NCBI GenBank assembly: GCA_001820055.1
Contig: MHOK01000005.1
Coordinates: 7,371-71,370, forward strand
Direction: 5' to 3'
From: Candidatus Spechtbacteria bacterium RIFCSPLOWO2_12_FULL_38_22
GTDB taxonomy: Bacteria; Patescibacteriota; Minisyncoccia; Spechtbacterales; 2-12-FULL-38-22
Length of the DNA: 64,000 nt
In this document: piece after piece, positions 10,307 to 62,851 of the stretch
How positions within the stretch are numbered: the stretch's first letter is position 1
How the letters are laid out: each line of letters starts with the position of its first letter
The notes under the pieces: generated by a model
What the model was told of the DNA's origin: nothing
Database searches by the model: none
Seen by the model: only the letters and a program-made list of their open reading frames with translations
Program-made: the position numbers and the translations under genes

Positions 10307-12208
10307 CTACAAACTATCCGAAACTGTAAAAATTTTGGTTAACCTTATATTATCAAAAAAACTTACAAACTCCTTCCATATCTTGCCTAAAGAACTAACA
10401 GGCGCAATTTCTTTAAAGTCTGGTAGGGGTAATTTAACATCTATTGTATCTGTTTTTGAACACTGGCCGTTACCAGAGTTTGAATCTGTGGCAAGAGTGT
10501 TATCTGTAACCCTTAGGATAATTGTTTGGTTCCCGTCACTGCCAAATACTGCTTGGGGATTTTGTTGGGCAGAAGAACTTGGGGTTGTGTCAGCTGGAAA
10601 TGTCCAGTTCCAAGATTGACTTGCGCTTCCTGAATCAAAAATAGTTTGATCTCCAAATTGTACAGGCTCTCCTTGGGAGGGCTTTTGAGGCGCCCAAGAA
10701 AAATCTACAAACGGATATGGATGAAGAAGAGTTCTAAATGAAGTTCCGGCTGAAAATCCACTGCCTGCGTCCGAGGCATCATATACTTGCACTCTCCAAT
10801 AGTATGTCCTATTAAATGCCAGTTGTCCGTCTCCGTCTGCGATTCCGTCTGTAAATTCTGCCACCGGAGTAGAGGAAATAGCTATAAATCTTTCCTCGGC
10901 TCCACTTGCCACCTTTCCAGAATCAAATTGCAAATTTTGTTGAGTAAAGGATGGATTTCTTGAAACCTGCAATCTATATGCTGACTGGCTTGAACTTTCT
11001 AAATCAGAAAAATCCCACCTAAAACGTTCCCTAGCTATGCACGAGGGGCCAGAACCGATAACTAAACTGGCGGGCGAAGTGATTACTGTGGGGGGAGTAT
11101 TTATTAATGTACAAACCCTATCTCCATTTGGATCCTCGTAACCTGCGGGCATAGTTGCTTGTACTCCTCCGAGATTTGTACACAAATCTATAATACATGC
11201 TTGCGTATTGCATGCTTGCGAATCGCTTGTGCTTGTGCATGAAGTCGTATCCCTATTAATCGCAAGACGAGTGCGTGTTTGAGTGCCACCGCCACAAGGT
11301 TCAGAACAAGCACTCCAGACACTCCATTCAGAATATATACAACATCTGTCATCCAAAGAACATCTTTTTTCATTTGGATACGGAGCGCAAACTGTTCGTT
11401 CTTGCGGAACTTCTGTCGGATCACATTTCTCGCCTCCTCCACAACTGCCGACGGTCGTCCACGGTCCTTTGGCGCATGAATCACAAGACCGATGAGGTGT
11501 ACAACTTATAGACCCCGCGCAGTTAGTTTTTAAACCAGAATCGCATATACCGCAAGTAGGCGTAGACGCACTACATATTTGCGTACAAACCCTATCTCCA
11601 TTTGGATCTTCGTAACCCGCAGGCATAGTTGCCTGATTCCCTGCAATGTTTGTGCATACATCGCTAACGGGGCAAGTGGGAAGGTTTACCCCGTCCCATC
11701 TTATGGTAGTACTCCCAGATGGACAGGCGGCTTCTGAAGGAGCCTTGCCATCTACATTGGCCCTAACAGAATTAACCGGAGTACTGCCGTTACAACATAT
11801 TTTATACCGCCCGCCCACGGTACAATTACAATATCCTGCCCTCAAATACGGCGAAGGACCTGGTTCGTCATATTTATCTGCGGTTGAGCATGAGCTTGTG
11901 GTATAGATGAGTCTCCAACTACATGCATATCTACCCGTTCTCCTGCAAGAGGTAGTGTACTTACTCCATGTGTTAGTCTTGCTATTTGGGCCACAGGCCT
12001 CTCCACACCCTCCTGAATCGGTACGACTAGGACCATTATTACAGACTACGTTCGCGCCGGAGGGAGGACTACACCTTACTGGATCACATGATCCCAAACC
12101 ACCATCCGCCCGATATGGCTGATAAGCGCGAACTATGCTGAAAAAACCAAAAAACACAGCTACACTAACTGCCAAAAAAAGACTATGTTTAAGATATCGC
12201 TTATTCAT
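10307..12208 (-). CDS. Secreted/cell-surface Cys-rich adhesin-like protein with thrombospondin type-1 repeat, Fn3-like and PKD-like domains
   Basis: N-terminal signal/anchor. Residues ~291-338 read CIYSEWSVWSACSEPCGGGTQTRTR...QACNTQAC, a canonical TSP1 pattern (WSxWSxCSxxCGxGxQxRxR). Duplicated MPAGYEDPNGDRVCT modules. Fn3-like segment (TYYWRVQV). PKD-like segment (FGDQTIFDSG...WNWTF...ILRVTDN). Locally elevated GC. Confidence 0.7.
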   Translation of the reverse strand: MNKRYLKHSLFLAVSVAVFFGFFSIVRAYQPYRADGGLGSCDPVRCSPPSGANVVCNNGPSRTDSGGCGEACGPNSKTNTWSKYTTSCRRTGRYACSWRLIYTTSSCSTADKYDEPGPSPYLRAGYCNCTVGGRYKICCNGSTPVNSVRANVDGKAPSEAACPSGSTTIRWDGVNLPTCPVSDVCTNIAGNQATMPAGYEDPNGDRVCTQICSASTPTCGICDSGLKTNCAGSISCTPHRSCDSCAKGPWTTVGSCGGGEKCDPTEVPQERTVCAPYPNEKRCSLDDRCCIYSEWSVWSACSEPCGGGTQTRTRLAINRDTTSCTSTSDSQACNTQACIIDLCTNLGGVQATMPAGYEDPNGDRVCTLINTPPTVITSPASLVIGSGPSCIARERFRWDFSDLESSSQSAYRLQVSRNPSFTQQNLQFDSGKVASGAEERFIAISSTPVAEFTDGIADGDGQLAFNRTYYWRVQVYDASDAGSGFSAGTSFRTLLHPYPFVDFSWAPQKPSQGEPVQFGDQTIFDSGSASQSWNWTFPADTTPSSSAQQNPQAVFGSDGNQTIILRVTDNTLATDSNSGNGQCSKTDTIDVKLPLPDFKEIAPVSSLGKIWKEFVSFFDNIRLTKIFTVSDSL

Positions 12209-40591: not shown

Positions 40592-43021
40592 TTGTTAGGG
40601 GAAAACTTCTTGAGCAAACGTGCTCTTCTATTGTATAATAAATCTATAACTAGTATGGATTTTTATAGAAAACTCCGCAAATTTTTTATTACAAAAAATC
40701 TGCATATGTCGCAGAGTATTCTTAGTATTTCGCTGTCCATAAGATACTCAAAATACTTCCTCACAGCTATCGTTTTTGTAGTATTTGGGGGATTTTTCTT
40801 TTCAGCGCAACCAACAGACGCGTTCGGATTTTTAGCGTGGTTCGGTGTTGGTTTATTAGCGGATATACTTACTGGTGGACACGTCTTAAGTGCCGTAGCA
40901 GCACCCTTCTTCGAAGCCTTAATGAAGATATTGACCGAATTTATATTTCCAATTGTTGAAGCTGTCATAACCTCAATATTATCCTTCATAAACTTCTTAC
41001 TCACTGGAATTGTATATGTGGCAAAAACCATAATGGAGTTTGCTTTAAACTTTTCCCTTACCGCTCCTTACACAGACACAAGCCAAGGAGTTATAAAAGC
41101 CGCATGGCCGATATTTAGAGATTTGGCAAATATGGGACTTATTCTAGTACTAGTAGCTATCGGCATCGGGACAATACTTAACCTAAAGACAAACCGCAAC
41201 CAATTGATGCCCTTTATTATAATCGCGTTTCTAATTAACTTTACTCCGATGCTTACGGGCATCGTTATAGATTTAAGTAACTTAACCGCACGTATCTTTT
41301 TTGACGCGGCGCAAAATGCCTCAAACGCGTTTCTAGCTGGGAATCCATTTTCAGGTTCAATGGACAGACTTGGGGGAAGCATACCACTAATAGGTAGAGG
41401 AATATCAGGAGATGCGTTCGGAGCAACAGATTTTTCTGGCATCTCAATTTTTGCCATAATGACTACCATATTTTTACTTGTCCTAATTTTTGCGTACTTA
41501 CTGCTAGGCGCGCTATTTTTGGGTAGAACTTTGGCGCTTTGGTTGCTTGTTATATTTTCTCCTATAGCGTTTGTGGCTTATATACTTCCCTCGACCAGAA
41601 AAGTTTTTGATAACTGGTGGAACAACTTTTTAAAATGGTCCCTCATCGCAATACCCCTTATATTCTCTTTGTGGCTAGCGGGTATATTTTTACATAACAC
41701 AAGTGTTGGTTGTCAGGCGATATCTCAAAGTGCGATAGAACAAAATATTGGCGAAAACTTAGAGGAAAACGACGGAACAATAACAGGAGAGTCGTCGTTA
41801 GCAGGAGATGACTACGCAACCATACTTTATCCTGTAACCGCCGCGCAAACCAATACCGGCACAAATATGATTTGCGGAATTACATCTATGATATTTGCTC
41901 TTGGGACGCTATTTGTTGGCATATCTATGAGCTTAAAAAGTTCTGCCACAGGGGCGAACATTATAATATCGCGCGCTAAAAAACTGAAAGATGCGATGAT
42001 GAAAAAAGCTTCAAAGTGGGCAGGCACTGAAGCTGAAAAAAGGGGAAGACAACTTACGGCAAGACCGCTTTCAAAAGCGGGGCAGGGCTTGGCAGATTCT
42101 CGCCTTGGGCGCAGCGCTCTAGGGTCACCACTTCGCAACCTCGGGCTTGCGATGCAACGCCCTGCTGTAAAATGGGCTCAACAATATAAAGAGCACGAAA
42201 AGAAATTCCAAGGCATGAGCTGGGAACAAATGAAAGGAATGTTGTTTGAACGCACAGACAAAGGGTCTGCTGCGTGGGCATACGCCGCTAAAAACCACGC
42301 CGGAGATTTAAGAAAAACCTTAGATGATCCAAAAACTGGAGGTGGCCTAAGAAAAGTTATGAAAGCAAAGATGAAAAAAGCTAATTTACGAGGCGATGAC
42401 TCTATGAAAGAGGTAGAAAAAATTGATCCAAAAACCGCAGCAGAAACAAAACATGCCGGTATCAGTGATGAAGGAAAACGACTAGATGCTATAAAAAATG
42501 AAATACATAAGATAGTAGAAAAGCTAGATGACAAAGCGGTCGCAAACCTATCTAATTCGTCTCTGGGAGATACTAGAGTTGTAAAAGCGCTAGAGGAACA
42601 AGGCAAGTTAACTAAGGGTGCCATTGAAAATCTGGCAAAAGAAGAAACACGACTTGCAACGCTGGACACCATTCTGCAAGAAAACTACAAAAAAGAATTG
42701 GTCAAAGAATTAAAGAAAATGACATCAGAAGAAAGAATAAAAACATTTGGATCAGTTGGATCACTTATAGCGAGAGGGGGGGATTTATCACCCGAAGCAT
42801 ACAAAAAATTCCTATCAAGTCCTGAAAACTATAAAAAAATGTTGCGATACAAAAAGGATAAAAGTGGGGGGCGTGTTAGCCCGTACTTGGAAACCATAGA
42901 GGCTCACCCTTATGCGGCGGCGTTTCACTTCACAACCAAAGAATCTGTCCGGGAAGGACTAACAAAAAAAGATTTCGAGACTTTTAGAAAAGAAATGACC
43001 TCAAAGGAAGATAAAAAATAA
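40592..43021 (+). CDS. VirB6/TrbL-like polytopic membrane protein with long hydrophilic C-terminal domain
   Basis: ~8-10 TM helices in the first ~400 aa. Charged Lys/Ala-rich ~400-aa C-terminal extension. Position at the head of the VirB3/VirB4 cluster. True start may be 40655 or 40706. Confidence 0.45.
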   Translation: MLGENFLSKRALLLYNKSITSMDFYRKLRKFFITKNLHMSQSILSISLSIRYSKYFLTAIVFVVFGGFFFSAQPTDAFGFLAWFGVGLLADILTGGHVLSAVAAPFFEALMKILTEFIFPIVEAVITSILSFINFLLTGIVYVAKTIMEFALNFSLTAPYTDTSQGVIKAAWPIFRDLANMGLILVLVAIGIGTILNLKTNRNQLMPFIIIAFLINFTPMLTGIVIDLSNLTARIFFDAAQNASNAFLAGNPFSGSMDRLGGSIPLIGRGISGDAFGATDFSGISIFAIMTTIFLLVLIFAYLLLGALFLGRTLALWLLVIFSPIAFVAYILPSTRKVFDNWWNNFLKWSLIAIPLIFSLWLAGIFLHNTSVGCQAISQSAIEQNIGENLEENDGTITGESSLAGDDYATILYPVTAAQTNTGTNMICGITSMIFALGTLFVGISMSLKSSATGANIIISRAKKLKDAMMKKASKWAGTEAEKRGRQLTARPLSKAGQGLADSRLGRSALGSPLRNLGLAMQRPAVKWAQQYKEHEKKFQGMSWEQMKGMLFERTDKGSAAWAYAAKNHAGDLRKTLDDPKTGGGLRKVMKAKMKKANLRGDDSMKEVEKIDPKTAAETKHAGISDEGKRLDAIKNEIHKIVEKLDDKAVANLSNSSLGDTRVVKALEEQGKLTKGAIENLAKEETRLATLDTILQENYKKELVKELKKMTSEERIKTFGSVGSLIARGGDLSPEAYKKFLSSPENYKKMLRYKKDKSGGRVSPYLETIEAHPYAAAFHFTTKESVREGLTKKDFETFRKEMTSKEDKK

Positions 43022-43035
43022 CAAACACAAACATT

Positions 43036-43611
43036 ATGTTGGATATTGCCCTTAATAACTACGTACAAGCATTTGATACAACTCCGCAGAAGATAAAGGA
43101 TGTGCTTTTTGCCGACTTTACATCATCGGCAATAAAAAACATTACTCACCGACATAACGCGCAAAATAACATGCTGGATATATCTGCAACCATTGGTTAT
43201 GTACTAGTTGGCCTTATTCCCGTAAAAAACATTATTGAAGTTTTAAAATTAGAAGCGCAACTTGATCAAAACACAGCTCGCAATATAGCCTATGACATAC
43301 GCGAACAGATATTCGCGCCCATAGCTCAAGAACTTGCTTCAATACAAGCGCAAGCGCAAAACAGTTGGGGACAAATCAACGTACTTCAACCGCAAACAAT
43401 GCTTACTGTAGCTCCTGTTTTAGACGAATCAATCACAAGAGAAAAACTACAAATGATTCCTCCTGCGTTACAAGACCATCCTGCCCTAGAACTCCCCACA
43501 AAAGTAGCGCCCGCCCCGCCTCAAAACTTGCCAACAGAACCAAAAGCAATAGACAATATTCCGCCCGACAATCGAATAGATTTAAGAGACAAAAGAGATA
43601 CAAGGTTTTAA
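43036..43611 (+). CDS. Hypothetical soluble protein in the T4SS-like cluster
   Basis: 191 aa. No TM. Gln/Pro-rich C-terminus. Confidence 0.3.
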   Translation: MLDIALNNYVQAFDTTPQKIKDVLFADFTSSAIKNITHRHNAQNNMLDISATIGYVLVGLIPVKNIIEVLKLEAQLDQNTARNIAYDIREQIFAPIAQELASIQAQAQNSWGQINVLQPQTMLTVAPVLDESITREKLQMIPPALQDHPALELPTKVAPAPPQNLPTEPKAIDNIPPDNRIDLRDKRDTRF

Positions 43612-43717: not shown

Positions 43718-44119
43718 ATGCAATATTCAACTCCACAATTTATAGACAGGGAACAAAAGCTGCTGGGGCCACTAACTGTACACCAAACAGTTATTCTTGG
43801 TTTAACTACTGTGTTTTTGGTAATATCCTATTTTATATTTAATTTCTTTTTGTTTAGCGTGTTACTCGTAATTCTTGGAGGCACGAGTATCTCAATATCT
43901 TTTATTAAAATAAACGACAGACCAGTATACCAGTTTGTAACTTCTTTTTTTGGATATTTTTTAAAACCCCGCATATACATATGGCAAGGAGAATCTCAAA
44001 ATCCTGTTGCGCAACCTCAAACCACGCAAAAGACACAACAAGAAACTGAGCCTCAAAAGAGATCTCCCCAAATTACAAAAAAAGAACTAGAAGAACTGAC
44101 AGAATTTCTTAACAAATAA
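43718..44119 (+). CDS. VirB3-like small membrane protein
   Basis: Two adjacent TM helices near the N-terminus. Immediately upstream of VirB4. The ORF track starts at TTG 43694. Confidence 0.3.
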   Translation: MQYSTPQFIDREQKLLGPLTVHQTVILGLTTVFLVISYFIFNFFLFSVLLVILGGTSISISFIKINDRPVYQFVTSFFGYFLKPRIYIWQGESQNPVAQPQTTQKTQQETEPQKRSPQITKKELEELTEFLNK

Positions 44120-44120
44120 T

Positions 44121-44771
44121 ATGGCACAACCCTCAACTCAACAATTTATACCGATAGATAATATAAGAGATGATGTGGTTATTTTAAAAGGCGGGCAAAT
44201 GCGCGCTGTTTTACAAGTATCCAGCATAAACTTGGCCCTAAAATCGCAAGACGAACAGGACGCAATAATTCAAAGTTACGGAGCGTTTCTTAATTCTCTA
44301 GAATTCCCGATACAGATACTCGCAAATTCCCGCTATATGAACCTAGACGAATATCTTAAAAACCTCAACGACATGATAGAGAAACAGCCATCCGAACTGA
44401 TGCAGATACAAACCCAAGAATATATAAATTTTATACAAGAATTCTTGTCACAAGACTATGTAGTATCTACAAACTTTTACGTTACGGTGCCCTTCAGTCT
44501 GGTTGATATAGATATTCAAAAGGGCGGTGCGCAAGAAAGATTTAAAGCCTTACTTGGAAAACAAAGCGAACTATCCTATATAGACCCCAAAGAATTTGTA
44601 TCTTACAGGAACCAACTAGTGCAGAGGGTTGAATTTATAGCAAGCGGTTTGCACAGAATGGGACTTGTTATAGATATGCTAAACACCGAACAGTTAATAT
44701 CCTTGTTTTGGAGCTTGTACAATCCCGAGGACTTAAAAAAAAGGTCTTTAGTAAAATCATTATTTGAATAA
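44121..44771 (+). CDS. VirB4/TrbE-family protein, N-terminal domain encoded as a separate ORF
   Basis: IPIDNIRDDVVILKGGQMRAVLQVSSINLALKSQDEQDAI... resembles the VirB4 N-terminal domain. Stop TAA overlaps the next ORF's start (TAATATG). Confidence 0.55.
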   Translation: MAQPSTQQFIPIDNIRDDVVILKGGQMRAVLQVSSINLALKSQDEQDAIIQSYGAFLNSLEFPIQILANSRYMNLDEYLKNLNDMIEKQPSELMQIQTQEYINFIQEFLSQDYVVSTNFYVTVPFSLVDIDIQKGGAQERFKALLGKQSELSYIDPKEFVSYRNQLVQRVEFIASGLHRMGLVIDMLNTEQLISLFWSLYNPEDLKKRSLVKSLFE

Positions 44772-46542
44772 TATGAAGCAGCTTGACGCACAACAAATCA
44801 ACCAGAAAGAACTTGAGCAAGAAAAAAAAAGGCGTTTAATAAATGTCCTGGCACCTCCGGTGGTAGAAATTGAAGCAGATTTTATAAAATTAGGTGGAGT
44901 ATTTGTTCGTACATTATTTATATCAAGTTACCCTAGATTTCTTTCACAAAACTGGATCAGTCCAATTATAAATTTGGACGAAACTGTTGATGTGTCCATA
45001 TTTATACAACCGATACCAACAGAATCTGTGCTTAAAAAACTGGAAAGCCAACTGACCGGCGTGGAAGCAGATATGATGGAGCGAGAAAAAAAGGGGCTGA
45101 TTCGCGACCCATTGCTTGAAGCGGCGTATACAAATATAGAAGATTTGAGAGATAAAATGCAAACCTCAGAAGAGAGGGTATTTAAGTTTGGGTTATATTT
45201 AATGCTTTACGGAAAAACAAAAGAAGCGCTTGAAGATGTTGAAAATAAAATTAAATCCCTACTGGAAAGTAGATTGATATACGCAAAACCCGTTGTATAC
45301 AAACAAGAACAGGGAATCGTGGGTGGACTACCTCTGGGTATAGACAACCTTAAATTAAACACGAGCCTAAACACATCATCGCTTTCTGCGTCTTTCCCTT
45401 TTGTTTCTTTTGACTTATCGGACAACAAGGGCATTCTTTATGGAATTAACCGACACAATTCAAGCCTAATACTATTTGACCGTTTCTCCTTAGAAAACGC
45501 AAATACTGTGGTTTTAGGAAAAAGTGGGGGGGGTAAAAGTTATGCTGTAAAATTAGAGATTCTGCGCTCTTTAATGCTTGGCATAGACAATATTGTAATA
45601 GATCCAGAAAATGAGTATAAATATCTTGCGGAAGCGACAGGAGGCAGTTTTTTTCATATATCGCTTACAAGCGGGGACCATATAAACCCTTTTGATATAC
45701 CCCAACCCCAACCAGACGATAAACCTCAAGAGGTTTATCGGGCTAATGTAATAACCTTAATGGGACTACTCAAACTTATGCTGGGCTCTATGACCCCAGA
45801 AGAAGAAAGCGTTTTAAATGAAGCAATAGACCAAACTTATGCCTCATACGATATTACAGCGGACACAGAGAGTTTCTGGAAAAAATCTCCACCCCTAATG
45901 AGAGACCTCCAGGCCGTGCTAGAAAGCATGCAAGGGGGAGAAGCGCTTGGACAACGGTTAGAAAAATATACGAAAGGCATCTATTCAGGATTTTTAAACG
46001 AAAGAACAAACGTAGAGCTAAACGACCAGCTGGTTGTTTTAAGCATAAGGGATATGGAAGAGGAACTGCGCCCAATAGCCATGTATATAATAATTGACTA
46101 TATCTGGGGAGCTATACGGCGGGAGCTTAAAAAAAGAATTTTAACAATAGACGAGGCTTGGTGGATGCTACAACAAAAAGAAAGTGCCTCGTTTTTGTTT
46201 GGAATTGCAAAACGAGCTCGTAAATACTTTTTGGGGTTAACAACTATCTCCCAAGATATAGCAGATTTTTTAAGCAGTGACTACGGCCGCGCTATTATTG
46301 CAAATTCTTCACTTCAAATTTTAATGAAGCAGTCTCCAACCACAATAGACCAAGTGCAAGAAGTATTTAATTTGACAGATGAAGAAAAACTACTGTTACT
46401 GGAGGACAATGTGGGCGAGGGTTTGTTTTTTGCGGGAACCAAGCATGTCGCCATAAAAATAATGTCCTCCTACATAGAAGACCAAATAATAACATCCGAC
46501 CCAGAGCAACTGCTTGAAATAAAAAGAATGAAAGAAAATTAA
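44764..46542 (+). CDS. VirB4/TrbE-family T4SS ATPase, C-terminal ATPase domain
   Basis: Walker A VVLGKSGGGKSY. DPENEY motif. Walker B ILTIDEAWWML. Probable ATG start at 44773. Confidence 0.85.
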   Translation: MNNMKQLDAQQINQKELEQEKKRRLINVLAPPVVEIEADFIKLGGVFVRTLFISSYPRFLSQNWISPIINLDETVDVSIFIQPIPTESVLKKLESQLTGVEADMMEREKKGLIRDPLLEAAYTNIEDLRDKMQTSEERVFKFGLYLMLYGKTKEALEDVENKIKSLLESRLIYAKPVVYKQEQGIVGGLPLGIDNLKLNTSLNTSSLSASFPFVSFDLSDNKGILYGINRHNSSLILFDRFSLENANTVVLGKSGGGKSYAVKLEILRSLMLGIDNIVIDPENEYKYLAEATGGSFFHISLTSGDHINPFDIPQPQPDDKPQEVYRANVITLMGLLKLMLGSMTPEEESVLNEAIDQTYASYDITADTESFWKKSPPLMRDLQAVLESMQGGEALGQRLEKYTKGIYSGFLNERTNVELNDQLVVLSIRDMEEELRPIAMYIIIDYIWGAIRRELKKRILTIDEAWWMLQQKESASFLFGIAKRARKYFLGLTTISQDIADFLSSDYGRAIIANSSLQILMKQSPTTIDQVQEVFNLTDEEKLLLLEDNVGEGLFFAGTKHVAIKIMSSYIEDQIITSDPEQLLEIKRMKEN

Positions 46543-46543
46543 T

Positions 46544-46897
46544 ATGGCTTTGCTCCACAAGAAATTAAAAAAGCGTATAGAAAAAGAATCTGTGTGGGGA
46601 GATAACTTCTTAATATTATTCTGGGCTATATTTATAGACATTATAGGATTTATTTCCGGATTATTGGGATTTCTTATTGTTCCTATAATATTTTCTAACA
46701 TTCTAAGTTCCATAGCCGGTATTCCTATTTTTGTTTGGGGTTATAAAAAATATAAAAAACGCGGAGGCTTTGGTGTTTGGAAATACATAAAACAAGTCTG
46801 GAGGACATCTCTAGCAGAAACGCTTGTAAGCCCGGGACCATGGTTAACTTTATTCGTAAGAAAAACAATACGAGGTAAAAAAATATTTAAATTCTAA
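46544..46897 (+). CDS. Small membrane protein in the T4SS-like cluster
   Basis: 117 aa. Basic N-terminus and 2-3 TM helices. Confidence 0.35.
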   Translation: MALLHKKLKKRIEKESVWGDNFLILFWAIFIDIIGFISGLLGFLIVPIIFSNILSSIAGIPIFVWGYKKYKKRGGFGVWKYIKQVWRTSLAETLVSPGPWLTLFVRKTIRGKKIFKF

Positions 46898-46898
46898 A

Positions 46899-48122
46899 AT
46901 GCTAAACTTCACAAAAAAGTCCACAAGCATTCTTGCGCTCTTCATACTAGTTTTTGGCGGTTGGGGTATAAACGCAAACACGCATGACACACGAGAAGCT
47001 GATATAATATATACTCCGCCATCCGAAGCAACTACCACAGCGGGAGAACCCATAGAACTGGGACCTATAAAATGCAACGTTAACTGGCCACGAATTCCTA
47101 TTCCGGGCGGAACTTTTGACCTAAACGAGTACTGCCAACCGGGCGCTTCAATAAGTATCGGCACCGTGATTGCCGCAATATATGCAACAGCACTCTGGCT
47201 TGGCGGTTTAATCGCATTTGGCGCTTTGTTTTATTCAGGGTTTTTATATATATTTTCTGGAAATGTTCCGGCAAATCGGTCTAAAGCGCGGGGTATGCTA
47301 GTTAATGTAGCATGGGGCATGGGAATACTACTACTTTCCTGGGTAACGCTCAGGTTGATAAATCCAGATATAACTAACCTAAAATTCCAAGAACCTCAAA
47401 AAACTAGAGTATGTCTGGACGCCAATCAGATAAACTGCATACCGGTGCCGGGTTTTATAGGAAGAGTCTCCTATAGCCCATACAATGCCGGAGATCCCTT
47501 GGAATCGGCTAGATGTATCGGGACAGGAGATGTGCGAGTGGGAGACTCCACTCTAAACAGTCTGGCAAATATTATGTGTGAAAGCGAAGAACTACTTAGA
47601 AAAGACGCCCATTCTTACCTAATACAGGCTGTCGGAAATTCAAATTGTTCTCAAGAGGATGTGGATGCGCTGTTGTTAAAAACAGAAACACTATGTCCTG
47701 CGAACCAGCCCGGAGATGAAGCGCTGGGAATAACCGGGGACACTGTGTCAACTGGTTTATGCTACTGGCAAGGACAATACGGTGGGGGAGCAGGAATATC
47801 TTTTGGAGCAAGCGGAGCTGTATATTTTCCGAATGACTATCTAGGCGATGCAGCTGATGATTTTTTGGAAATTGCTAACCTAGACATAATTGATGCTACG
47901 TCTCCCAGTGCCGAATTCGTTAATGCTATTCAAAAAAACCTTGACGCTGTTTTTGACTATTGTTCAAACGAAGATTCTAACCCCAACATCTGCATACTAC
48001 TGGACGAAGACGAATCCAACATCGCTGACCTAAACCCAGCACGAAGGGAGGCGCTACGTTGTTTCTGCACCAGGGACATATTACCATCCAAGTGGAACCC
48101 ATCTTTCCCTGAATGCAACTAA
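46899..48122 (+). CDS. Exported protein: VirB2/TrbC-like two-helix module fused to a Cys-rich ectodomain
   Basis: Signal peptide. Residues ~67-165 read IPGGTFDLNEYC...GGLIAFGALFYSGFLYIFSGNVPANRSKARGMLVNVAWGMGILLLSWVTLRLINPD, paralogous to the 23820 and 48132 proteins. C-terminal ~240 aa has 14 Cys. Confidence 0.45.
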   Translation: MLNFTKKSTSILALFILVFGGWGINANTHDTREADIIYTPPSEATTTAGEPIELGPIKCNVNWPRIPIPGGTFDLNEYCQPGASISIGTVIAAIYATALWLGGLIAFGALFYSGFLYIFSGNVPANRSKARGMLVNVAWGMGILLLSWVTLRLINPDITNLKFQEPQKTRVCLDANQINCIPVPGFIGRVSYSPYNAGDPLESARCIGTGDVRVGDSTLNSLANIMCESEELLRKDAHSYLIQAVGNSNCSQEDVDALLLKTETLCPANQPGDEALGITGDTVSTGLCYWQGQYGGGAGISFGASGAVYFPNDYLGDAADDFLEIANLDIIDATSPSAEFVNAIQKNLDAVFDYCSNEDSNPNICILLDEDESNIADLNPARREALRCFCTRDILPSKWNPSFPECN

Positions 48123-48131
48123 ACACCCTTT

Positions 48132-49715
48132 ATGATTATTAAAAATAAAAAATACATAATACTGGGCTTATCTATTTTGGTACTATTGCCTACTACCTTT
48201 GTATACGCCGCAGAGTCCCCAAACATAATCTTTAATACGAACTTCCCAGCAATTCCCGCTCCAGTACCAGGAGGGTTTTTTGATTTAAATTGCATAGAAG
48301 GATTAAACTCTAATCTGTGTAGTAGCAACTTTGAATATGCTCCAACTATTGGAAACATAATTTTATTTATATTTACCGCCGCGATATGGATCGGCGGACT
48401 TGTCGCATTTGGGGTTTTATTCTACGGCGGGTTTTTATATATATTTTCTGGAAACGCTCCGGCTAATCGATCTAAAGCGCGAGGCATGTTGGTTAATGTA
48501 GCATGGGGAATTGGGATTTTACTCCTTTCTGTTGTATTTTTAAACTTAATAAACCCTGATGTTGCTAACTTGCGTTTTGAGAACCCCGAAGCCATCCAAA
48601 CTTGTCCCGACGGCACAACTGATTGTATAACCTACCCAGAATTGCCAAAACAATACAACACATTTGGATGTAGTTGGAACGAACAGGAAGACAAGTGCGA
48701 AATAGCCCAAGATACCGTAGCGTGTACACTTGGGTTTAAAACCTCTGGTGTGTGTGAAAAAGTTAATGGACTTCATAACCAAAATAGCTTACTTGATAAC
48801 GAAAAGGTTTGTAAAAGCTTAAAATCAAATGCTTGCGCGCTAAGTTCTGAGGGCGAAGACGCAGTTGGCAATGTTGGTTCCTATGTAGCATGTCTTGGAA
48901 CTTGCCTGTCACAAGGAAAATTAGAGGCAACATGCCAAAACGAGTGTTCTGTTTATACAGGAGGGGGCAGCGGATACTCTTGCCGGGAAAGATGCCAGGA
49001 AACCCTTCCTCCACAACTAGCGCATGAGTGTTCAGAGCTTCCGTCATGCTTAGAAACTCCCCCCGGAGTTACACCTGCAGCTGACGGATATTTTAAACTA
49101 CCCGCTTCAAATTTTTATACCAAAAGATACGAAGACGCATCGTGTGGCAAATTAGAACTAATACAAGCAATATATGTTGTGGCAAAAAGATGGTCAGAAA
49201 TAGGGGGGTCTAAAATGAATGTAACGGATTTAAACGGGGGAGGAGATTACAACTCCGGAGTTTGCCACTCAACCCATAATAGAGGCATCGACGTTGATAT
49301 TCATATTGAAGGTGTAACGCTGCACAAAACAGCAAATTCTGGAGAGTGGCTAATTAAACTGGGTAAACTACTAGTGGACACCGGGGTCGTGTCAGGATTC
49401 ATACACAGAACTGATGCTCCCCAGGATGCCGCAGCTTTAGAAGTTGTTAATAGATACTTTGAGAATAAATTCCCAAATCGAAACCCCTGGCACCCACCAT
49501 GGGCTCTAAATGAGGGGTTCTGGAGGACGGATACTGCAGGTAATCACGAAGATCATATGCACATACATATTGGCGACTCAGACGGAGCAACGGGGACAGG
49601 AATTCAACCTGGACCATACAATAGGTCTTGTAGTAGGGATACAACCTTAAGATATTATTCGAGCTCCGATTATTGTTGCTATAGAACAGATGGAGGGCAA
49701 CAAAAGTGTGGTTAG
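48132..49715 (+). CDS. Exported protein: VirB2/TrbC-like module, Cys-rich region, C-terminal LAS/M15-like zinc peptidase domain
   Basis: Residues ~40-145 are paralogous to the 46899 protein (FSGNAPANRSKARGMLVNVAWGIGILLLS). Residues ~375-482 read CHSTHNRGIDVDIH ... NHEDHMHIH, fitting SxHxxGxxxD plus HxH of Hedgehog/DD-peptidase-fold (M15) enzymes. Confidence 0.5.
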   Translation: MIIKNKKYIILGLSILVLLPTTFVYAAESPNIIFNTNFPAIPAPVPGGFFDLNCIEGLNSNLCSSNFEYAPTIGNIILFIFTAAIWIGGLVAFGVLFYGGFLYIFSGNAPANRSKARGMLVNVAWGIGILLLSVVFLNLINPDVANLRFENPEAIQTCPDGTTDCITYPELPKQYNTFGCSWNEQEDKCEIAQDTVACTLGFKTSGVCEKVNGLHNQNSLLDNEKVCKSLKSNACALSSEGEDAVGNVGSYVACLGTCLSQGKLEATCQNECSVYTGGGSGYSCRERCQETLPPQLAHECSELPSCLETPPGVTPAADGYFKLPASNFYTKRYEDASCGKLELIQAIYVVAKRWSEIGGSKMNVTDLNGGGDYNSGVCHSTHNRGIDVDIHIEGVTLHKTANSGEWLIKLGKLLVDTGVVSGFIHRTDAPQDAAALEVVNRYFENKFPNRNPWHPPWALNEGFWRTDTAGNHEDHMHIHIGDSDGATGTGIQPGPYNRSCSRDTTLRYYSSSDYCCYRTDGGQQKCG

Positions 49716-53802: not shown

Positions 53803-54040
53803 ATTTATAACTTTACCACTTTAATGAACTGTTTTCAAGTTAGGAAAGTGATTCCACACACACTCCACAACTTATACCCAAAATTCGTAAAAAATCAAGA
53901 TTTACAACATGGTATGTGCTCGTGGTAGAATGGAATAGAATTAATCGCCCACACTTAGTTATCGTATCCGCCAACTACAGACTGCGACAAAAAACTAAAC
54001 GTAGTCCATAGACACCTTGTGGGTGGTGGCAAATAAAATT
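53803..54040. promoter_or_regulatory. Candidate oriC / dnaA promoter region with DnaA-box-like 9-mers
   Basis: GATTCCACA, ACTCCACAA, TGTGGGTGG. Classical rpmH-dnaA position. Confidence 0.35.
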
Positions 54041-60314: not shown

Positions 60315-61751
60315 TTATTTTGGCTTAGTGTTAGAATAAGTTTTGGTAATTTCGGCACTTTTTTTTGTTAATCCCGCACTTCTAGTTTTTTTACTTTTTT
60401 GAATTTTGTATTCGTATACCAAGCCGTCTATATTGTTAATAAAGTAACCTTTTTTCTTACCCTTTTTAGTAAACCCAGCTTTTTTGAAGGACAGCTGTCT
60501 TTTTTTATTGTTAGCTGGAACGATAACATTGATTTTTTTGTTTTTCGCAGTTTTGGATATCTCTATTAATTGTCGTATCATCCTTCTTCCCATTCTTTGT
60601 CCGCGGAAGTCCTTGAGTATACCCATGCGTGTTATTCTGCGCATTTTGCCACTTAAATAGTGGGTCATAAAAGCTATGGGCTCTTGATTTTTGTAAATTA
60701 CAATAAGATCTCGTTGCAAAACTGTGTCTAGAAAATCTTTTTTTGTAAACGGCTTTTCAGTTTGTTCTGGATTGTCTTTTTCTATCTTGTATAAAGTATC
60801 AAATATTTTCTTTTTAGTTTTTGTGTCAAATTCTGTTTCTATGCTCCACAAATATTTTTCTTCTATGTAGGATATTAACTTTTCTGCCACGTTAATTTTG
60901 GTTGCGGATTCAAAGCCCTCAAATCCGGGGAAGATATTTACCTCTAAAATATAGTGTTTATTTTTATATTTAATGATATCTACTCCCGCAAACTCTGCGT
61001 TAAATATTTTTGCCGCTTTTAGCGCTAGGCGTTGCATTTCAGGCGTTACTTCGGCTTCTTCCGCCGCACCTCCTAAAGACACGTTGGCCCTGAATTCCCC
61101 TTCTTTGGCTGTTCTTTTCATAGCGCCTATTACTTTACCCCCTATCACTATGACCCTGTAGTCATGTTTGGTCGGTATGTATTTTTGTATCAACACCTTG
61201 CCCGGACCAGAGACCCCCACTAGGTTCTCTATTTGTTCCGTCTTTTCTATAAGAAACACTTGAGCACCCCTTGAACCTTCAACATTTTTTGCTATGTATG
61301 GTTTTTTAAATTTTTTATAAACAGTATCCGGTGTGTGCTTTCCTGTATATAGAAGGGACGTTACAATAGGAAGCCCATTTTTAGCTAGCAAGTAATGTTG
61401 TAGTAGTTTATCGTAGAAGGGTATTTTTATTATGGTTTTTTCGTTCAGTACGTGTTTATAGTGTTCGTTTATATATCGAACCAGAAGTAAATAGTGTCGA
61501 TATAAATGACTTACATATGTTGTTTCTTCTTTTCCTTTAAATAGTGGATTTCTTGGGATTATGTAATCGTAGTATTTTAGATCGGTTCCGTTTGGTCTTT
61601 TTATAACCACGCCTTTTTTAGAAAATTGGAAAACAAGTCCACCCCAAAACATGTAGTTTACCGTGTGACCTCTTTTTTTAAGTTCTTGTACCAACCTTCT
61701 TGATACGTACGGTAGTTTTTTAGCGCTAAATCCCAGTAGTAATATTCTCAT
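60315..61751 (-). CDS. RimK-type ATP-grasp ligase fused to C-terminal GNAT acetyltransferase
   Basis: ATP-grasp core closely matching RimK (IQKYIPTKHDYRVIVIGGKVIGAMKRTAKEGEFRANVSLGGAAE...GVDII...LEVNIFPGFEGFE). C-terminal ~130 aa with GNAT acetyl-CoA motif (RGQRMGRRMIRQLIE). Confidence 0.68.
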   Translation of the reverse strand: MRILLLGFSAKKLPYVSRRLVQELKKRGHTVNYMFWGGLVFQFSKKGVVIKRPNGTDLKYYDYIIPRNPLFKGKEETTYVSHLYRHYLLLVRYINEHYKHVLNEKTIIKIPFYDKLLQHYLLAKNGLPIVTSLLYTGKHTPDTVYKKFKKPYIAKNVEGSRGAQVFLIEKTEQIENLVGVSGPGKVLIQKYIPTKHDYRVIVIGGKVIGAMKRTAKEGEFRANVSLGGAAEEAEVTPEMQRLALKAAKIFNAEFAGVDIIKYKNKHYILEVNIFPGFEGFESATKINVAEKLISYIEEKYLWSIETEFDTKTKKKIFDTLYKIEKDNPEQTEKPFTKKDFLDTVLQRDLIVIYKNQEPIAFMTHYLSGKMRRITRMGILKDFRGQRMGRRMIRQLIEISKTAKNKKINVIVPANNKKRQLSFKKAGFTKKGKKKGYFINNIDGLVYEYKIQKSKKTRSAGLTKKSAEITKTYSNTKPK

Positions 61752-62349
61752 ATTTTTTAATTACCCTACTTAATGCTAAAATGAGGTTCGCAAAATGTTT
61801 TTCGTTTTGTCTAACTTCCTCATTAAGTTCTAGTTGGACTGCGGGTATGTCTAGATTTCTTCTAACGTGATAGGTCAGTGTTTTACTACCAGGTCCTTTG
61901 ACTGACCTGAAAAATCCTTTACTCACGTCCTCTTTTAAGAAAAAAGACTCAAAGCTTTTTAATAGTAGTTCTTCGAGGGCCTGGTCATGTTTATGTGTTT
62001 GAGGGAATATAAAATCATAGTCAATTAAAAAAGGTCTTGAATGTTTTGATCCATGAACATCGAGCACTAAAGATATATTATTCTCTTTTACTATTTCTCT
62101 AACAAATTTTTTGTATACCCTATAAACTTTTTTGTCCCAGTTTTCTAAAATACTTTCGCCGGTTTCTAATTGGGTGAATATGCCCCATACTCCGATTTCG
62201 TCGCATAATACCTCTACAATCTCTGACACCCTTTTTTCGAATTTTGTGTAAGGACCCTCCTTATCTTCTTTTAATAACGGAACAGCGTGAGGCGCGGAGA
62301 TTAGTACAGGAAACTTGCCTTCTATGATTTTTATATTTGGGTGTTCCAT
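61726..62349 (-). CDS. N-formylglutamate amidohydrolase-family (M14-like fold) hydrolase
   Basis: ISAPHAVP ... LDVHGS pattern typical of the FGase / succinylglutamate-desuccinylase-like superfamily. Overlaps the RimK-GNAT start by 26 nt (operon). Confidence 0.45.
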   Translation of the reverse strand: MEHPNIKIIEGKFPVLISAPHAVPLLKEDKEGPYTKFEKRVSEIVEVLCDEIGVWGIFTQLETGESILENWDKKVYRVYKKFVREIVKENNISLVLDVHGSKHSRPFLIDYDFIFPQTHKHDQALEELLLKSFESFFLKEDVSKGFFRSVKGPGSKTLTYHVRRNLDIPAVQLELNEEVRQNEKHFANLILALSRVIKKYENITTGI

Positions 62350-62350
62350 A

Positions 62351-62851
62351 TTATGTTCTTTCTAGGTAATTCAACGAACTGGCACAACACATAGCAACCG
62401 CCAACGCGTCAGCCGCATCATCTGGGTGTGGCACTTCGTTTAGTTTTAATAAATTTTTAACCATACTCTGTACTTGTTTTTTGTCTGCTTGGCCATATCC
62501 GGTTACAGCTTGTTTTACTTGTAGTGGGGTAAATGAATAACATTGTTTATGGTTATCTGCGGCAAGAAGCAACACGATACCCCTGGCTTGGCTGACAGTT
62601 ATGAGCGTTTTTTGATTTTTAAAATAAAAAATATCCTCGACAGCAATAACGTGAGGATTGTATTGTTTTACCATACTTTGCAGTGTTTTGTAAATATCCC
62701 CTAGTCGTAGATGTTCGGGAGTATTCATATCTGTTTCTATTATACCATGTGCTATATGGTTTATGTTAGAATCCTCGAGGCTTATAAGCCCGTATCCCAT
62801 ACGCGCGATTCCAGGGTCAATACCAAGTATAATTTTTTTCGCTTCGCTCAT
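62351..62851 (-). CDS. ruvC: Holliday junction resolvase RuvC
   Basis: ILGIDPGIARMGYGL. Catalytic acidic residues (D, E, D, D). 166 aa. Confidence 0.85.
   Translation of the reverse strand: MSEAKKIILGIDPGIARMGYGLISLEDSNINHIAHGIIETDMNTPEHLRLGDIYKTLQSMVKQYNPHVIAVEDIFYFKNQKTLITVSQARGIVLLLAADNHKQCYSFTPLQVKQAVTGYGQADKKQVQSMVKNLLKLNEVPHPDDAADALAVAMCCASSLNYLERT

What the first reader, a model, noticed from the sequence alone, without database searches (positions are those of the whole stretch)
44121..46542. VirB4 encoded as two translationally coupled ORFs (N-terminal domain + ATPase)
The 216-aa ORF resembles the VirB4 N-terminal domain, and the following 592-aa ORF carries Walker A, Walker B and DPENEY motifs. 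They overlap in a TAATATG stop/start junction. This is either a genuine split (as in some Gram-positive systems), a frameshift pseudogene, or a sequencing error.
Basis: seen in the sequence. Interest (0 to 1): 0.55.

Follow-up and report, generated by a model that had tools for sequence, protein, structure and literature searches.

The report
Naturally split VirB4 secretion ATPase
The motor ATPase (VirB4) of this ultra-small bacterium's type IV secretion system really is encoded as two adjacent genes, but this is the normal, conserved and already published arrangement in its phylum, not a mutation or a sequencing error.

Summary
ORF1 (44121-44771, 216 aa) and ORF2 (44773-46542, 589 aa from the ATG) together are colinear with single-chain VirB4 proteins. 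Two details need correction. The genes abut (TAA, one T, ATG) and do not overlap. The break lies inside the classical VirB4 N-terminal domain, so ORF2 keeps about 214 residues ahead of its ATPase domain.

The split is genuine and old:
- Five independent assemblies have identical DNA across both genes.
- 77 of 78 scorable loci from the genome-collection scan carry the same split, in all three relative frames, with spacers from -29 to +509 nt. Six have an extra gene inserted between the two halves.
- 149 of the 150 best representative clusters of ORF1 relatives are stand-alone proteins.
- Fused 778-804-aa versions exist in sister lineages, one at the same locus next to dnaA. There the break point maps to a variable linker that is modelled as disordered.

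The same break occurs in a Pontibacillus plasmid and, more remotely, in staphylococcal TraD/TraE (TrsD/TrsE).

A 2025 survey already reported TrsD homologues, remote relatives of the VirB4 N-terminus, next to virB4 across Patescibacteria. The frameshift and sequencing-error readings are rejected. Translational coupling is plausible here but is not a conserved feature. Interest is low.

The parts
43718..44119 (+). PrgI/VirB3-like small membrane protein (133 aa from ATG 43718; the ORF listing starts it at TTG 43694). It ends in TAA-T-ATG directly before ORF1.
   Evidence: Pfam PrgI E 6.4e-5, below the gathering score. It matches positions 14-102 of the mycoplasma VirB3-VirB4 fusion model NF045975. 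A hydrophobic stretch at aa 18-66 is long enough for two transmembrane helices. The same gene precedes the N-module gene in L001, L002 and L091.
44121..44771 (+). ORF1: stand-alone VirB4 N-terminal module (TrsD-like, Pfam PF26593 'TraC-like'), 216 aa, with no hydrophobic segment.
   Evidence: The identical genes in L085-L089 carry a precomputed PF26593 hit.
44769..44775 (+). Junction TAA-T-ATG: ORF1 stop, a 1-nt spacer, then the ORF2 start. ORF2 is in the +1 frame relative to ORF1.
   Evidence: The sequence is identical in five independent assemblies. The same stop-N-ATG geometry recurs in 11 of 77 related loci.
44773..46542 (+). ORF2: VirB4 core, 589 aa. It comprises the second half of the N-terminal domain (about aa 1-214) plus the RecA-like ATPase C-terminal domain (aa 215-574).
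   Evidence: NCBIfam CD1110 VirB4-like ATPase, 377.5 bits against a cut-off of 325, model positions 174-734. Pfam P-loop_TraG, AAA_10 and DUF87. PDB 4AG5, E 6.7e-42, for aa 215-574.
45517..45540 (+). Walker A motif, GKSGGGKS (ORF2 aa 249-256).
45601..45618 (+). DPENEY motif (ORF2 aa 277-282).
46138..46155 (+). Walker B motif, ILTIDE, followed by AWW (ORF2 aa 456-461).
40592..43021 (+). Large polytopic protein at the head of the cluster, a candidate VirB6/TrbL-like channel subunit.
   Evidence: Weak Pfam TrbL hit, E 0.0044, below the cut-off. A 780-aa gene occupies the same position in L091.
43036..43611 (+). 191-aa protein of unknown family between the VirB6-like gene and the PrgI-like gene.
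   Evidence: No Pfam hit. A gene is conserved at this position in L091 (220 aa) and L001 (155 aa).
46544..46897 (+). 117-aa small hydrophobic protein, following ORF2 after a 1-nt spacer.
   Evidence: The same gene follows ORF2 in L085-L087 and a 110-aa gene follows in L001.
46899..48122 (+). T4SS pilin-like (VirB2-like) protein, 407 aa, after another 1-nt spacer.
   Evidence: Pfam T4SS_pilin PF18895, E 3.8e-7, above the cut-off.
48132..49715 (+). Second T4SS pilin-like protein, 527 aa, with a weak C-terminal murein-endopeptidase-like hit.
   Evidence: Pfam T4SS_pilin, E 2.5e-7; Peptidase_M74, E 0.0015, below the cut-off.

Best explanation
This is the chromosomal type IV secretion system locus of a Patescibacteria (CPR) bacterium, Candidatus Spechtbacteria. 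Its VirB4 motor is made from two polypeptides as the result of an ancient gene fission.

ORF1 is a soluble 216-aa alpha/beta module equivalent to roughly the first 215 residues of single-chain VirB4. It is the module known as TrsD/TraD in pGO1/pSK41-type plasmids and as Pfam PF26593. ORF2 carries the rest: the second half of the N-terminal domain plus the ATPase domain. The cut falls in a variable linker that is modelled as disordered in fused homologues, so each half can fold on its own.

The two genes lie in a tightly packed operon in which the gene order mirrors the domain order of VirB3-VirB4 fusion proteins: prgI/virB3-like, N module, core, a 117-aa gene, then pilin genes. Four consecutive junctions in this operon have a 1-nt spacer.

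Inferred steps:
- Both genes are translated from one mRNA, without Shine-Dalgarno sites, possibly by termination-reinitiation.
- The N module then binds the core non-covalently. This rebuilds the N-terminal domain that, in single-chain VirB4, joins dimer protomers, sits at the membrane and contacts VirB3 and VirB8.
- The machine as a whole is probably the non-conjugative T4SS that is essential for epibiotic growth in a cultivated relative.
For: Shown:
- ORF1 plus ORF2 align over 99% of their joint length with fused 778-804-aa homologues at 47-53% identity. The break falls between two conserved blocks, in a variable linker.
- In the AlphaFold model of the fused homologue P0141, residues 219-238 at the break have pLDDT below 50. 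The whole model matches full-length R388 TrwK/VirB4 (Foldseek E 3e-24, TM about 0.6).
- The 13 best PDB matches of the ORF1 model are all TrwK/VirB4 chains (E 0.013, probability 0.97).
- NCBIfam places the three genes on consecutive parts of the mycoplasma VirB3-VirB4 fusion model: PrgI-like on 14-102, ORF1 on 103-222, ORF2 on 279-893.
- ORF1 has 733 homologues. The best 120 are all 191-262 aa, down to 40% identity, with 21 invariant columns in a 25-sequence alignment.
- The ORF1 profile finds 3888 representative clusters. Of the best 150, 149 are stand-alone and 1 is fused.
- 77 of 78 scorable loci from the genome-collection scan are split. Relative frames are 31/25/21 and spacers run from -29 to +509 nt.
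- In six loci a gene with inverted-repeat flanks is inserted between the halves, so the two are independent cistrons.
- The DNA is identical over 2422 nt in five assemblies from different samples.
- A Colwellbacteria genome has the same neighbourhood (KsgA, VirB6-like, PrgI, then Jag, YidC, dnaA, dnaN) but a fused 778-aa VirB4 (compared).
- The same break exists in a Pontibacillus plasmid (274 aa + 621 aa; hhalign probability 99.8%, E 1e-27) and in a staphylococcal plasmid (TraD 225 aa + TraE 672 aa; full-length hhalign but weak, probability 36%, E 3.8e-4).

From the literature:
- TrsD homologues, remote relatives of the VirB4 N-terminus, were found in 2,221 Patescibacteria assemblies, 1,664 of them next to virB4, and the homologue is listed as essential in Ca. 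Southlakia epibionticum (PMC12102498).
- VirB4 N-terminal domains connect the protomers of each dimer, embed in the membrane and contact VirB3 and VirB8 (PMC12857230).
Against: - No tool here tested physical association of the two polypeptides, their stoichiometry or their expression.
- The ORF1 fold match to VirB4 is statistically weak on its own (E 0.013, TM 0.39; model pLDDT 70.6).
- Similarity to staphylococcal TrsD/TraD is remote (33 bits against a family cut-off of 200), so a shared origin of that split is not established.
- Translational coupling is not conserved among relatives, and only 3 of 56 genes in the window have a Shine-Dalgarno-like motif. The lack of such a site before ORF2 is therefore uninformative.
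- The direction of the event (fission or fusion) rests on a crude neighbour-joining tree of a biased sample, rooted with outgroups that are themselves split.
Confidence: 0.85

Rival explanations
1. Frameshift pseudogene or sequencing/assembly error. A single-base indel near the A8 and A9 runs that flank the junction broke a once-continuous virB4.
For: ORF2 is in the +1 frame relative to ORF1, with only 1 nt between stop and start. Homopolymer runs lie at 44737-44744 and about 44822-44830.
Against: - Five independent assemblies from different samples and assemblers are identical over all 2422 nt.
- 77 of 78 related loci are split, in all three relative frames and with spacers up to 509 nt.
- Both halves are conserved at stable lengths down to about 40% identity.
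- No single-base indel near the junction would give a clean fusion, because the other two frames contain stops there.
Confidence: 0.01
2. Programmed +1 ribosomal frameshifting or stop-codon bypass at the junction yields a full-length fused VirB4 in addition to, or instead of, the two separate products.
For: The +1 frame relation and the 1-nt spacer in this genome. The same TAA/TAG-N-ATG geometry recurs in 11 of 77 relatives.
Against: - Relative frames among relatives are near-uniform (31/25/21).
- Spacers vary widely, and six loci have a whole gene inserted between the halves.
- No slippery or stimulatory element is evident. In the window, the ORF2 frame has two stop codons in the 45 nt upstream of the junction.
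- The same 1-nt spacing occurs at three other junctions between unrelated genes of this operon.
Confidence: 0.02
3. ORF1 descends from a VirB4 N-terminus but now acts as an independent accessory factor (the 'TrsD' role, currently unknown). It could be an assembly chaperone, an adaptor or a regulator, and not a constitutive piece of the VirB4 motor.
For: [quoted passage not shown]
- 39 of the 150 best representative clusters carry long low-complexity P/Q/A/T-rich tails on the module, which suggests added lineage-specific interactions.
- Spacers and inserted genes show that co-translation is not required.
Against: - Adjacency and gene order are kept in 77 of 78 loci sampled.
- Fused and split versions occupy the same orthologous locus.
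- The module stays well conserved and aligns colinearly with the N-terminus of the fused proteins at about 37-45% identity, which is expected if it keeps the same structural role.
Confidence: 0.12

Closest known systems
TrsD-homologue + VirB4 pair of the Patescibacteria T4SS (Quinonero-Coronel et al. 2025, PMC12102498; T4SS genes essential in Ca. Southlakia epibionticum, Wang et al. 2023, as cited there)
   Same: - Same phylum and the same gene set: VirB6-like, PrgI/VirB3-like, TrsD-like, VirB4 and VirB2-like pilins.
- Chromosomal location close to dnaA.
- No relaxase or coupling protein was found among the window ORFs scanned.
- ORF1 relatives are the abundant stand-alone proteins that survey describes.
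   Different: Nothing substantive; this locus is an instance of it. The paper calls the protein a TrsD homologue with remote similarity to the VirB4 N-terminus. Its text, searched here only for 'TrsD', 'split', 'fused' and related terms, does not use the word 'split' and mentions fusions only for VirB3-VirB4.
TrsD/TraD + TrsE/TraE of staphylococcal pGO1/pSK41-type conjugative plasmids (MPF-FATA, pGO1 subclass)
   Same: - Same order: small VirB3-like gene (135 aa), a module of about 225 aa, then a VirB4-like ATPase lacking that module (672 aa).
- hhalign aligns the ORF1 family to TraD end to end, including the C-terminal aromatic motif.
- The NCBIfam TrsD model hits ORF1 at E 5e-8.
   Different: - The relationship is very remote (33 bits against a family cut-off of 200; hhalign probability 36%).
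- Those plasmids are conjugative, with a relaxase. The system here is chromosomal, with pilin genes and no relaxase seen.
Split CD1110-family VirB4 on a Pontibacillus sp. ALD_SL1 plasmid (NZ_CP062975)
   Same: - Gene order 116 aa, 274 aa, 621 aa.
- The 274-aa protein is a clear homologue of ORF1 (hhalign probability 99.8%, E 1e-27).
- The ATPase is the best plasmid match to ORF2 (33.7% identity over 97% of ORF2).
- The break point is the same.
- Its own 42 homologues are all stand-alone, 158-293 aa.
   Different: Bacillota megaplasmid context, a longer N module, and no T4SS pilin genes seen in the stretch examined.
Single-chain VirB4 (R388 TrwK; F TraC; CD1110 family) and VirB3-VirB4 fusions (mycoplasma ICE Mbov_0397 family)
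   Same: The domain content and order are the same: VirB3-like, N module, second N-terminal half, ATPase. The fused CPR homologue model superposes on full-length TrwK. The NCBIfam fusion model is covered consecutively by the three window genes.
   Different: Here the same content is spread over three separate genes, not one or two.

Membership tests
VirB4-family T4SS ATPase (NCBIfam NF045971, CD1110 family) | Whole-protein score above the curated cut-off. | tested here: met
   ORF2 scores 377.5 bits against a cut-off of 325, model positions 174-734 of 752.
VirB4-family T4SS ATPase | RecA-like C-terminal domain with Walker A and Walker B motifs. | tested here: met
   GKSGGGKS at aa 249-256 and ILTIDE at aa 456-461. 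ORF2 aa 215-574 align to the VirB4 C-terminal domain structure 4AG5, E 6.7e-42.
VirB4-family T4SS ATPase | Complete N-terminal domain on the same polypeptide as the ATPase. | tested here: not met
   Model positions 1-121 (CD1110) or 103-222 (VirB4_plasma) are on ORF1, not ORF2. Fused homologues show that ORF1 corresponds to their first 215 or so residues.
VirB4-family T4SS ATPase | Encoded within a T4SS gene cluster next to a VirB3-like gene. | tested here: met
   A PrgI-like gene lies immediately upstream. A VirB6-like gene and two T4SS_pilin genes are in the same operon.
Pfam PF26593 'TraC-like' (VirB4/TraC N-terminal module) | Significant match to the family model. | tested here: met
   The 216-aa genes in L085-L089 are identical in DNA to ORF1 and carry an unmarked precomputed PF26593 hit, meaning E at most 1e-5. 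All 120 listed homologues carry it. The local Pfam copy returned no hit for ORF1; why is not known, and the model may be absent from that copy.
TrsD/TraD conjugative transfer protein (NCBIfam NF041427) | Whole-protein score above the curated cut-off of 200 bits. | tested here: not met
   33 bits, E 4.9e-8, model positions 15-98 of 201 only. hhalign against S. aureus TraD gives probability 36%, E 3.8e-4. ORF1 is a remote homologue, not a member by NCBI's criterion.
TrsD/TraD conjugative transfer protein | Stand-alone protein of about 200-225 aa, encoded between a VirB3-like gene and a VirB4-like ATPase that lacks the corresponding N-terminal module. | tested here: met
   Window order is 133 aa, 216 aa, 589 aa. 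S. aureus LC784006 order is 135 aa, 225 aa, 672 aa.
Patescibacteria-type T4SS (as defined in PMC12102498) | VirB4 of the Patescibacteria clade with TrsD, PrgI/VirB3, VirB6-like and VirB2-like pilin genes nearby, usually no relaxase, often near dnaA. | tested here: met
   Gene content. ORF2 is 100% identical to a Candidatus Spechtbacteria protein. dnaA is at 54017, about 7.5 kb downstream. No relaxase or coupling-protein domain was found among the 38 window ORFs scanned against Pfam; not every ORF was scanned.
Translationally coupled gene pair | Downstream initiation depends on translation of the upstream gene. | not testable with these tools
   Only the geometry is available: a 1-nt spacer and no SD-like motif. 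SD-like motifs are rare genome-wide (3 of 56 genes), and 49 of 77 relatives have spacers of 4 nt or more.

The most novel reading that the evidence does not exclude
The break point shared by Patescibacteria, a Pontibacillus-type Bacillota plasmid and pGO1/pSK41 plasmids might reflect a single ancient two-piece VirB4 architecture that Patescibacteria inherited with their T4SS. The fused CPR forms would then be secondary re-fusions. One fused protein, P0141, nests among split forms and carries extra residues at the junction. The freed N module, which in many lineages has grown long disordered tails, might have become an exchangeable adaptor that links the motor to lineage-specific partners or substrates.
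Probability: 0.2. Interest if true: 0.4.

Novelty: already known. Interest (0 to 1): 0.2.

Why it matters
The main value is for annotation. The 216-aa 'hypothetical protein' upstream of virB4 in Patescibacteria is the missing first part of VirB4 and should be treated as a T4SS subunit. The 589-aa gene should not be flagged as truncated or as a pseudogene.

The natural split, together with fused orthologues at the same locus, marks a permissive linker inside the VirB4 N-terminal domain. Structural and genetic work on T4SS assembly could use that site, for example to express the VirB3-binding part separately.

It does not open a new question. The TrsD-VirB4 association in this phylum and the TrsD/VirB4 homology are already published.

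Tried and rejected
- Internal duplication. The two halves of the N-terminal domain show a similar strand/helix order in the P0141 model, so I tested whether ORF1 and the N-terminal part of ORF2 are paralogous modules. hhalign of the two sub-alignments gave probability 0.3%. There is no support, and the idea was dropped.
- Direct sequence search of ORF1 against PDB chains gave only chance-level hits. The link to solved VirB4 structures needed the predicted fold.
- The local Pfam library gave no hit for ORF1. The family assignment to PF26593 comes from precomputed annotations.
- Mid-length ORF1 relatives. I tested whether those of 271-450 aa are fused proteins cut off at contig ends. None of the 39 contains ORF2-like sequence; those inspected carry low-complexity tails.
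- Shine-Dalgarno analysis as a test of coupling was uninformative, because the genome hardly uses such sites (3 of 56 genes).
- The neighbour-joining tree cannot decide between one fission and several events. The outgroups are themselves split, and the sample is the top 120 hits only.
- Guglielmini et al. 2014 was checked for the TrsD statement. The word does not occur in its main text, so the homology claim is cited through PMC12102498.
Full report
**What is in the sequence**

On the + strand, ORF1 runs 44121-44771 (216 aa). ORF2 runs to 46542, starting at TTG 44764 (592 aa) or at ATG 44773 (589 aa). The junction reads ...GAA TAA T ATG AAG.... With the ATG start, which all public gene calls use, the two genes do not overlap. 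They are separated by one T, and ORF2 is in the +1 frame. ORF2 carries Walker A (GKSGGGKS, aa 249-256), DPENEY (aa 277-282) and Walker B (ILTIDE, aa 456-461).

**What the two ORFs are**

ORF2 passes the curated cut-off of NCBIfam's CD1110-family VirB4-like ATPase (377.5 bits against 325), but covers only model positions 174-734 of 752. Only residues 215-574 align with the crystallised VirB4 C-terminal domain 4AG5 (E 6.7e-42). ORF2 therefore has about 214 residues in front of the ATPase domain.

ORF1 hits the N-terminal parts of two full-length VirB4 models (positions 103-222 of 894, E 2e-11; positions 1-121 of 752, E 3e-5) and the TrsD/TraD model (E 5e-8, far below its cut-off). The upstream PrgI/VirB3-like gene hits positions 14-102 of the mycoplasma VirB3-VirB4 fusion model. 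The three consecutive genes thus cover that fusion protein in order.

A search with ORF1 and ORF2 joined found fused proteins of 778-804 aa that cover 99% of the joint sequence at 47-53% identity. In the alignment the break falls in a variable stretch between two conserved blocks.

An AlphaFold model of the fused homologue P0141 (pLDDT 75.9) has a low-confidence segment at residues 219-238, which is the break position. As a whole it matches full-length R388 TrwK/VirB4 (E 3e-24, TM about 0.6). The model of ORF1 alone (pLDDT 70.6) has TrwK/VirB4 chains as its 13 best PDB matches, with weak statistics (E 0.013).

So ORF1 plus ORF2 make up a complete VirB4. The cut is in a linker inside the classical N-terminal domain, not at the boundary between that domain and the ATPase.

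**Artefact or real?**

Five contigs from different samples and assemblers are identical to the window over all 2422 nt, including both poly-A runs near the junction.

ORF1 has 733 homologues. The best 120 are all 191-262 aa, down to 40% identity, from Spechtbacteria, Adlerbacteria and other Patescibacteria. A profile search of 1.84 billion representative proteins finds 3888 clusters. Of the best 150, 110 are at most 270 aa. Another 39 are 271-450 aa; none of them contains ORF2-like sequence, and the seven I inspected are longer because of low-complexity P/Q/A/T-rich tails. One is fused.

The scan of one genome per species found 582 relatives, and the best 80 loci were kept. Of the 78 loci that could be scored (which include the window itself and L001), 77 have a stop after the N module followed by the ATPase gene. 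Relative frames are 31/25/21. Spacers range from -29 to +509 nt: 28 have an overlap or at most 3 nt, and a 1-nt spacer is the commonest class with 11.

In six loci a 0.45-0.5 kb insertion sits between the two genes. It carries a gene of about 125 aa (five of the 23S_rRNA_IVP family, one PDDEXK_3). The four insertions checked for repeats are flanked by inverted repeats.

These data exclude a sequencing error and a recent frameshift. They also leave no room for a conserved programmed frameshift.

**Evolutionary setting**

The window is chromosomal. UvrD, KsgA and the T4SS cluster are followed by Jag, YidC, dnaA (54017) and dnaN. ORF2 is 100% identical to a protein of Candidatus Spechtbacteria bacterium RIFCSPLOWO2_12_FULL_38.

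A Colwellbacteria genome has the same neighbourhood (LysM/M23, KsgA, a 780-aa VirB6-like gene, a 220-aa gene, PrgI, then Jag, YidC, RnpA, dnaA, dnaN) but with a fused 778-aa VirB4. Split and fused states therefore occur at an orthologous locus.

In a neighbour-joining tree of the ATPase region, the 108 split proteins form one clade that also contains the fused P0141. The other 12 fused proteins lie outside it. This suggests few events, but the tree is crude.

The same break exists outside the phylum. A Pontibacillus plasmid encodes a 274-aa clear ORF1 homologue (hhalign probability 99.8%) followed by a 621-aa VirB4, and that module's 42 homologues are all stand-alone. A staphylococcal pSK41-type plasmid encodes TraD (225 aa) and TraE (672 aa), with only remote similarity to ORF1.

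**Translational coupling**

In the window, four consecutive junctions of this operon have a 1-nt spacer: 44119/44121 (also TAATATG), 44771/44773, 46542/46544 and 46897/46899. Only 3 of 56 genes in the window have a Shine-Dalgarno-like motif.

The geometry fits termination-reinitiation. It is a general feature of this operon and not of the split, it is not conserved among relatives, and it cannot be tested with these tools.

**Likely mechanism**

Shown: two conserved cistrons that together equal one VirB4, in an operon with VirB3-like, VirB6-like and pilin genes.

Inferred: the N module binds the core non-covalently. This restores the N-terminal domain that, in single-chain VirB4, links dimer protomers, associates with the membrane and contacts VirB3 and VirB8 (PMC12857230). 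ORF1 itself has no hydrophobic segment, while the PrgI-like protein has a hydrophobic stretch long enough for two transmembrane helices.

The system is probably the non-conjugative Patescibacteria T4SS. Its genes, including the TrsD homologue, are listed as essential for epibiotic growth in Ca. Southlakia epibionticum (PMC12102498).

**Comparison with what is known, and novelty**

Quinonero-Coronel et al. 2025 (PMC12102498) report TrsD as the most abundant T4SS component of Patescibacteria. They found 2,272 homologues in 2,221 assemblies, 1,664 of them next to virB4. They note its remote homology to the N-terminal part of VirB4, the frequent position near dnaA, and the usual lack of a relaxase. 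Pfam already has a family for the module (PF26593, 'TraC-like').

The finding is therefore a correct reading of an already described arrangement. Three details were seen here: the exact position of the break in a linker, fused orthologues at the same locus, and inserted small genes between the halves. In the parts of the paper I searched (terms 'TrsD', 'split', 'fused', 'N-terminal', 'VirB3'), the word 'split' does not occur and fusions are mentioned only for VirB3-VirB4. These details are refinements, not a new kind of system.

**Verdict**

The 'genuine split' interpretation is supported. The pseudogene and sequencing-error readings are rejected. Novelty: already known. Interest: low (0.2).

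Noticed in passing
L004:4642-5147, L022:4666-5114, L036:4642-5104, L050:4648-5157, L062:4660-5133, L041:3104-3549: In six related Patescibacteria loci a 0.45-0.5 kb insertion lies exactly between the TrsD-like gene and virB4. It carries one gene of about 125 aa: 23S_rRNA_IVP family (PF05635; confirmed by Pfam scan in L004, L022 and L050, judged by sequence similarity in L036 and L062) or PDDEXK_3 (PF13366, in L041). Inverted repeats of 16-61 nt flank the four insertions checked (L004, L022, L050, L041). They look like small mobile insertions. L090 has a PDDEXK_3 gene directly after its fused virB4.
   Followed up: partly
window 44119/44121, 44771/44773, 46542/46544, 46897/46899: Four consecutive gene junctions in the T4SS operon have exactly one nucleotide between stop and ATG, and the first two are both TAATATG. 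Only one other same-strand gene pair in the window has this spacing (61726-62349 / 62351-62851).
   Followed up: partly
window, whole (56 ORFs of at least 100 aa): Only 3 of 56 genes have a GGAG/GAGG/AGGA motif in the 20 nt before the start codon. This genome seems to initiate translation largely without Shine-Dalgarno sites.
   Followed up: no
P0298, P0319, P0334, P0337, P0363, P0385, P0395 (inspected examples of 39 representative clusters): Many stand-alone N modules in other lineages are 271-450 aa. None of the 39 contains ORF2-like sequence, and the seven inspected carry long low-complexity P/Q/A/T-rich tails, mostly C-terminal and N-terminal in P0395. Their function is unknown.
   Followed up: partly
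L091 (Colwellbacteria, GCA_016176525.1) compared with window 36206-56736: The T4SS cluster sits in a conserved chromosomal neighbourhood a few kb from dnaA in both genomes: LysM/M23 peptidase, KsgA, T4SS genes, Jag, YidC, dnaA and dnaN (plus RnpA in L091). The window has in addition a UvrD helicase gene and two large pilin-like genes.
   Followed up: partly
window 48132-49715 (+): This 527-aa protein has a T4SS pilin-like N-terminus and a weak C-terminal hit to murein endopeptidase Peptidase_M74 (E 0.0015, below the cut-off). It may be a pilin-like protein fused to a cell-wall hydrolase.
   Followed up: no
window 10307-12208 (-): This 633-aa protein has hits to thrombospondin type 1 (TSP1) domains, an Ig-like domain and a PKD domain, an unusual surface-protein-like architecture for a CPR bacterium. 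Only TSP_1 and PKD_4 exceed their Pfam cut-offs.
   Followed up: no
L046:4645-4740: The spacer between the N-module gene and virB4 contains a tandem array of the heptamer CGCATAA, about 13 copies.
   Followed up: no
P0141 / L090:437-2851: This fused 804-aa VirB4 nests among split forms in the neighbour-joining tree and has extra residues at the junction. It may be a secondary re-fusion by loss of the stop codon, or an assembly error in a single 4.7-kb contig.
   Followed up: partly
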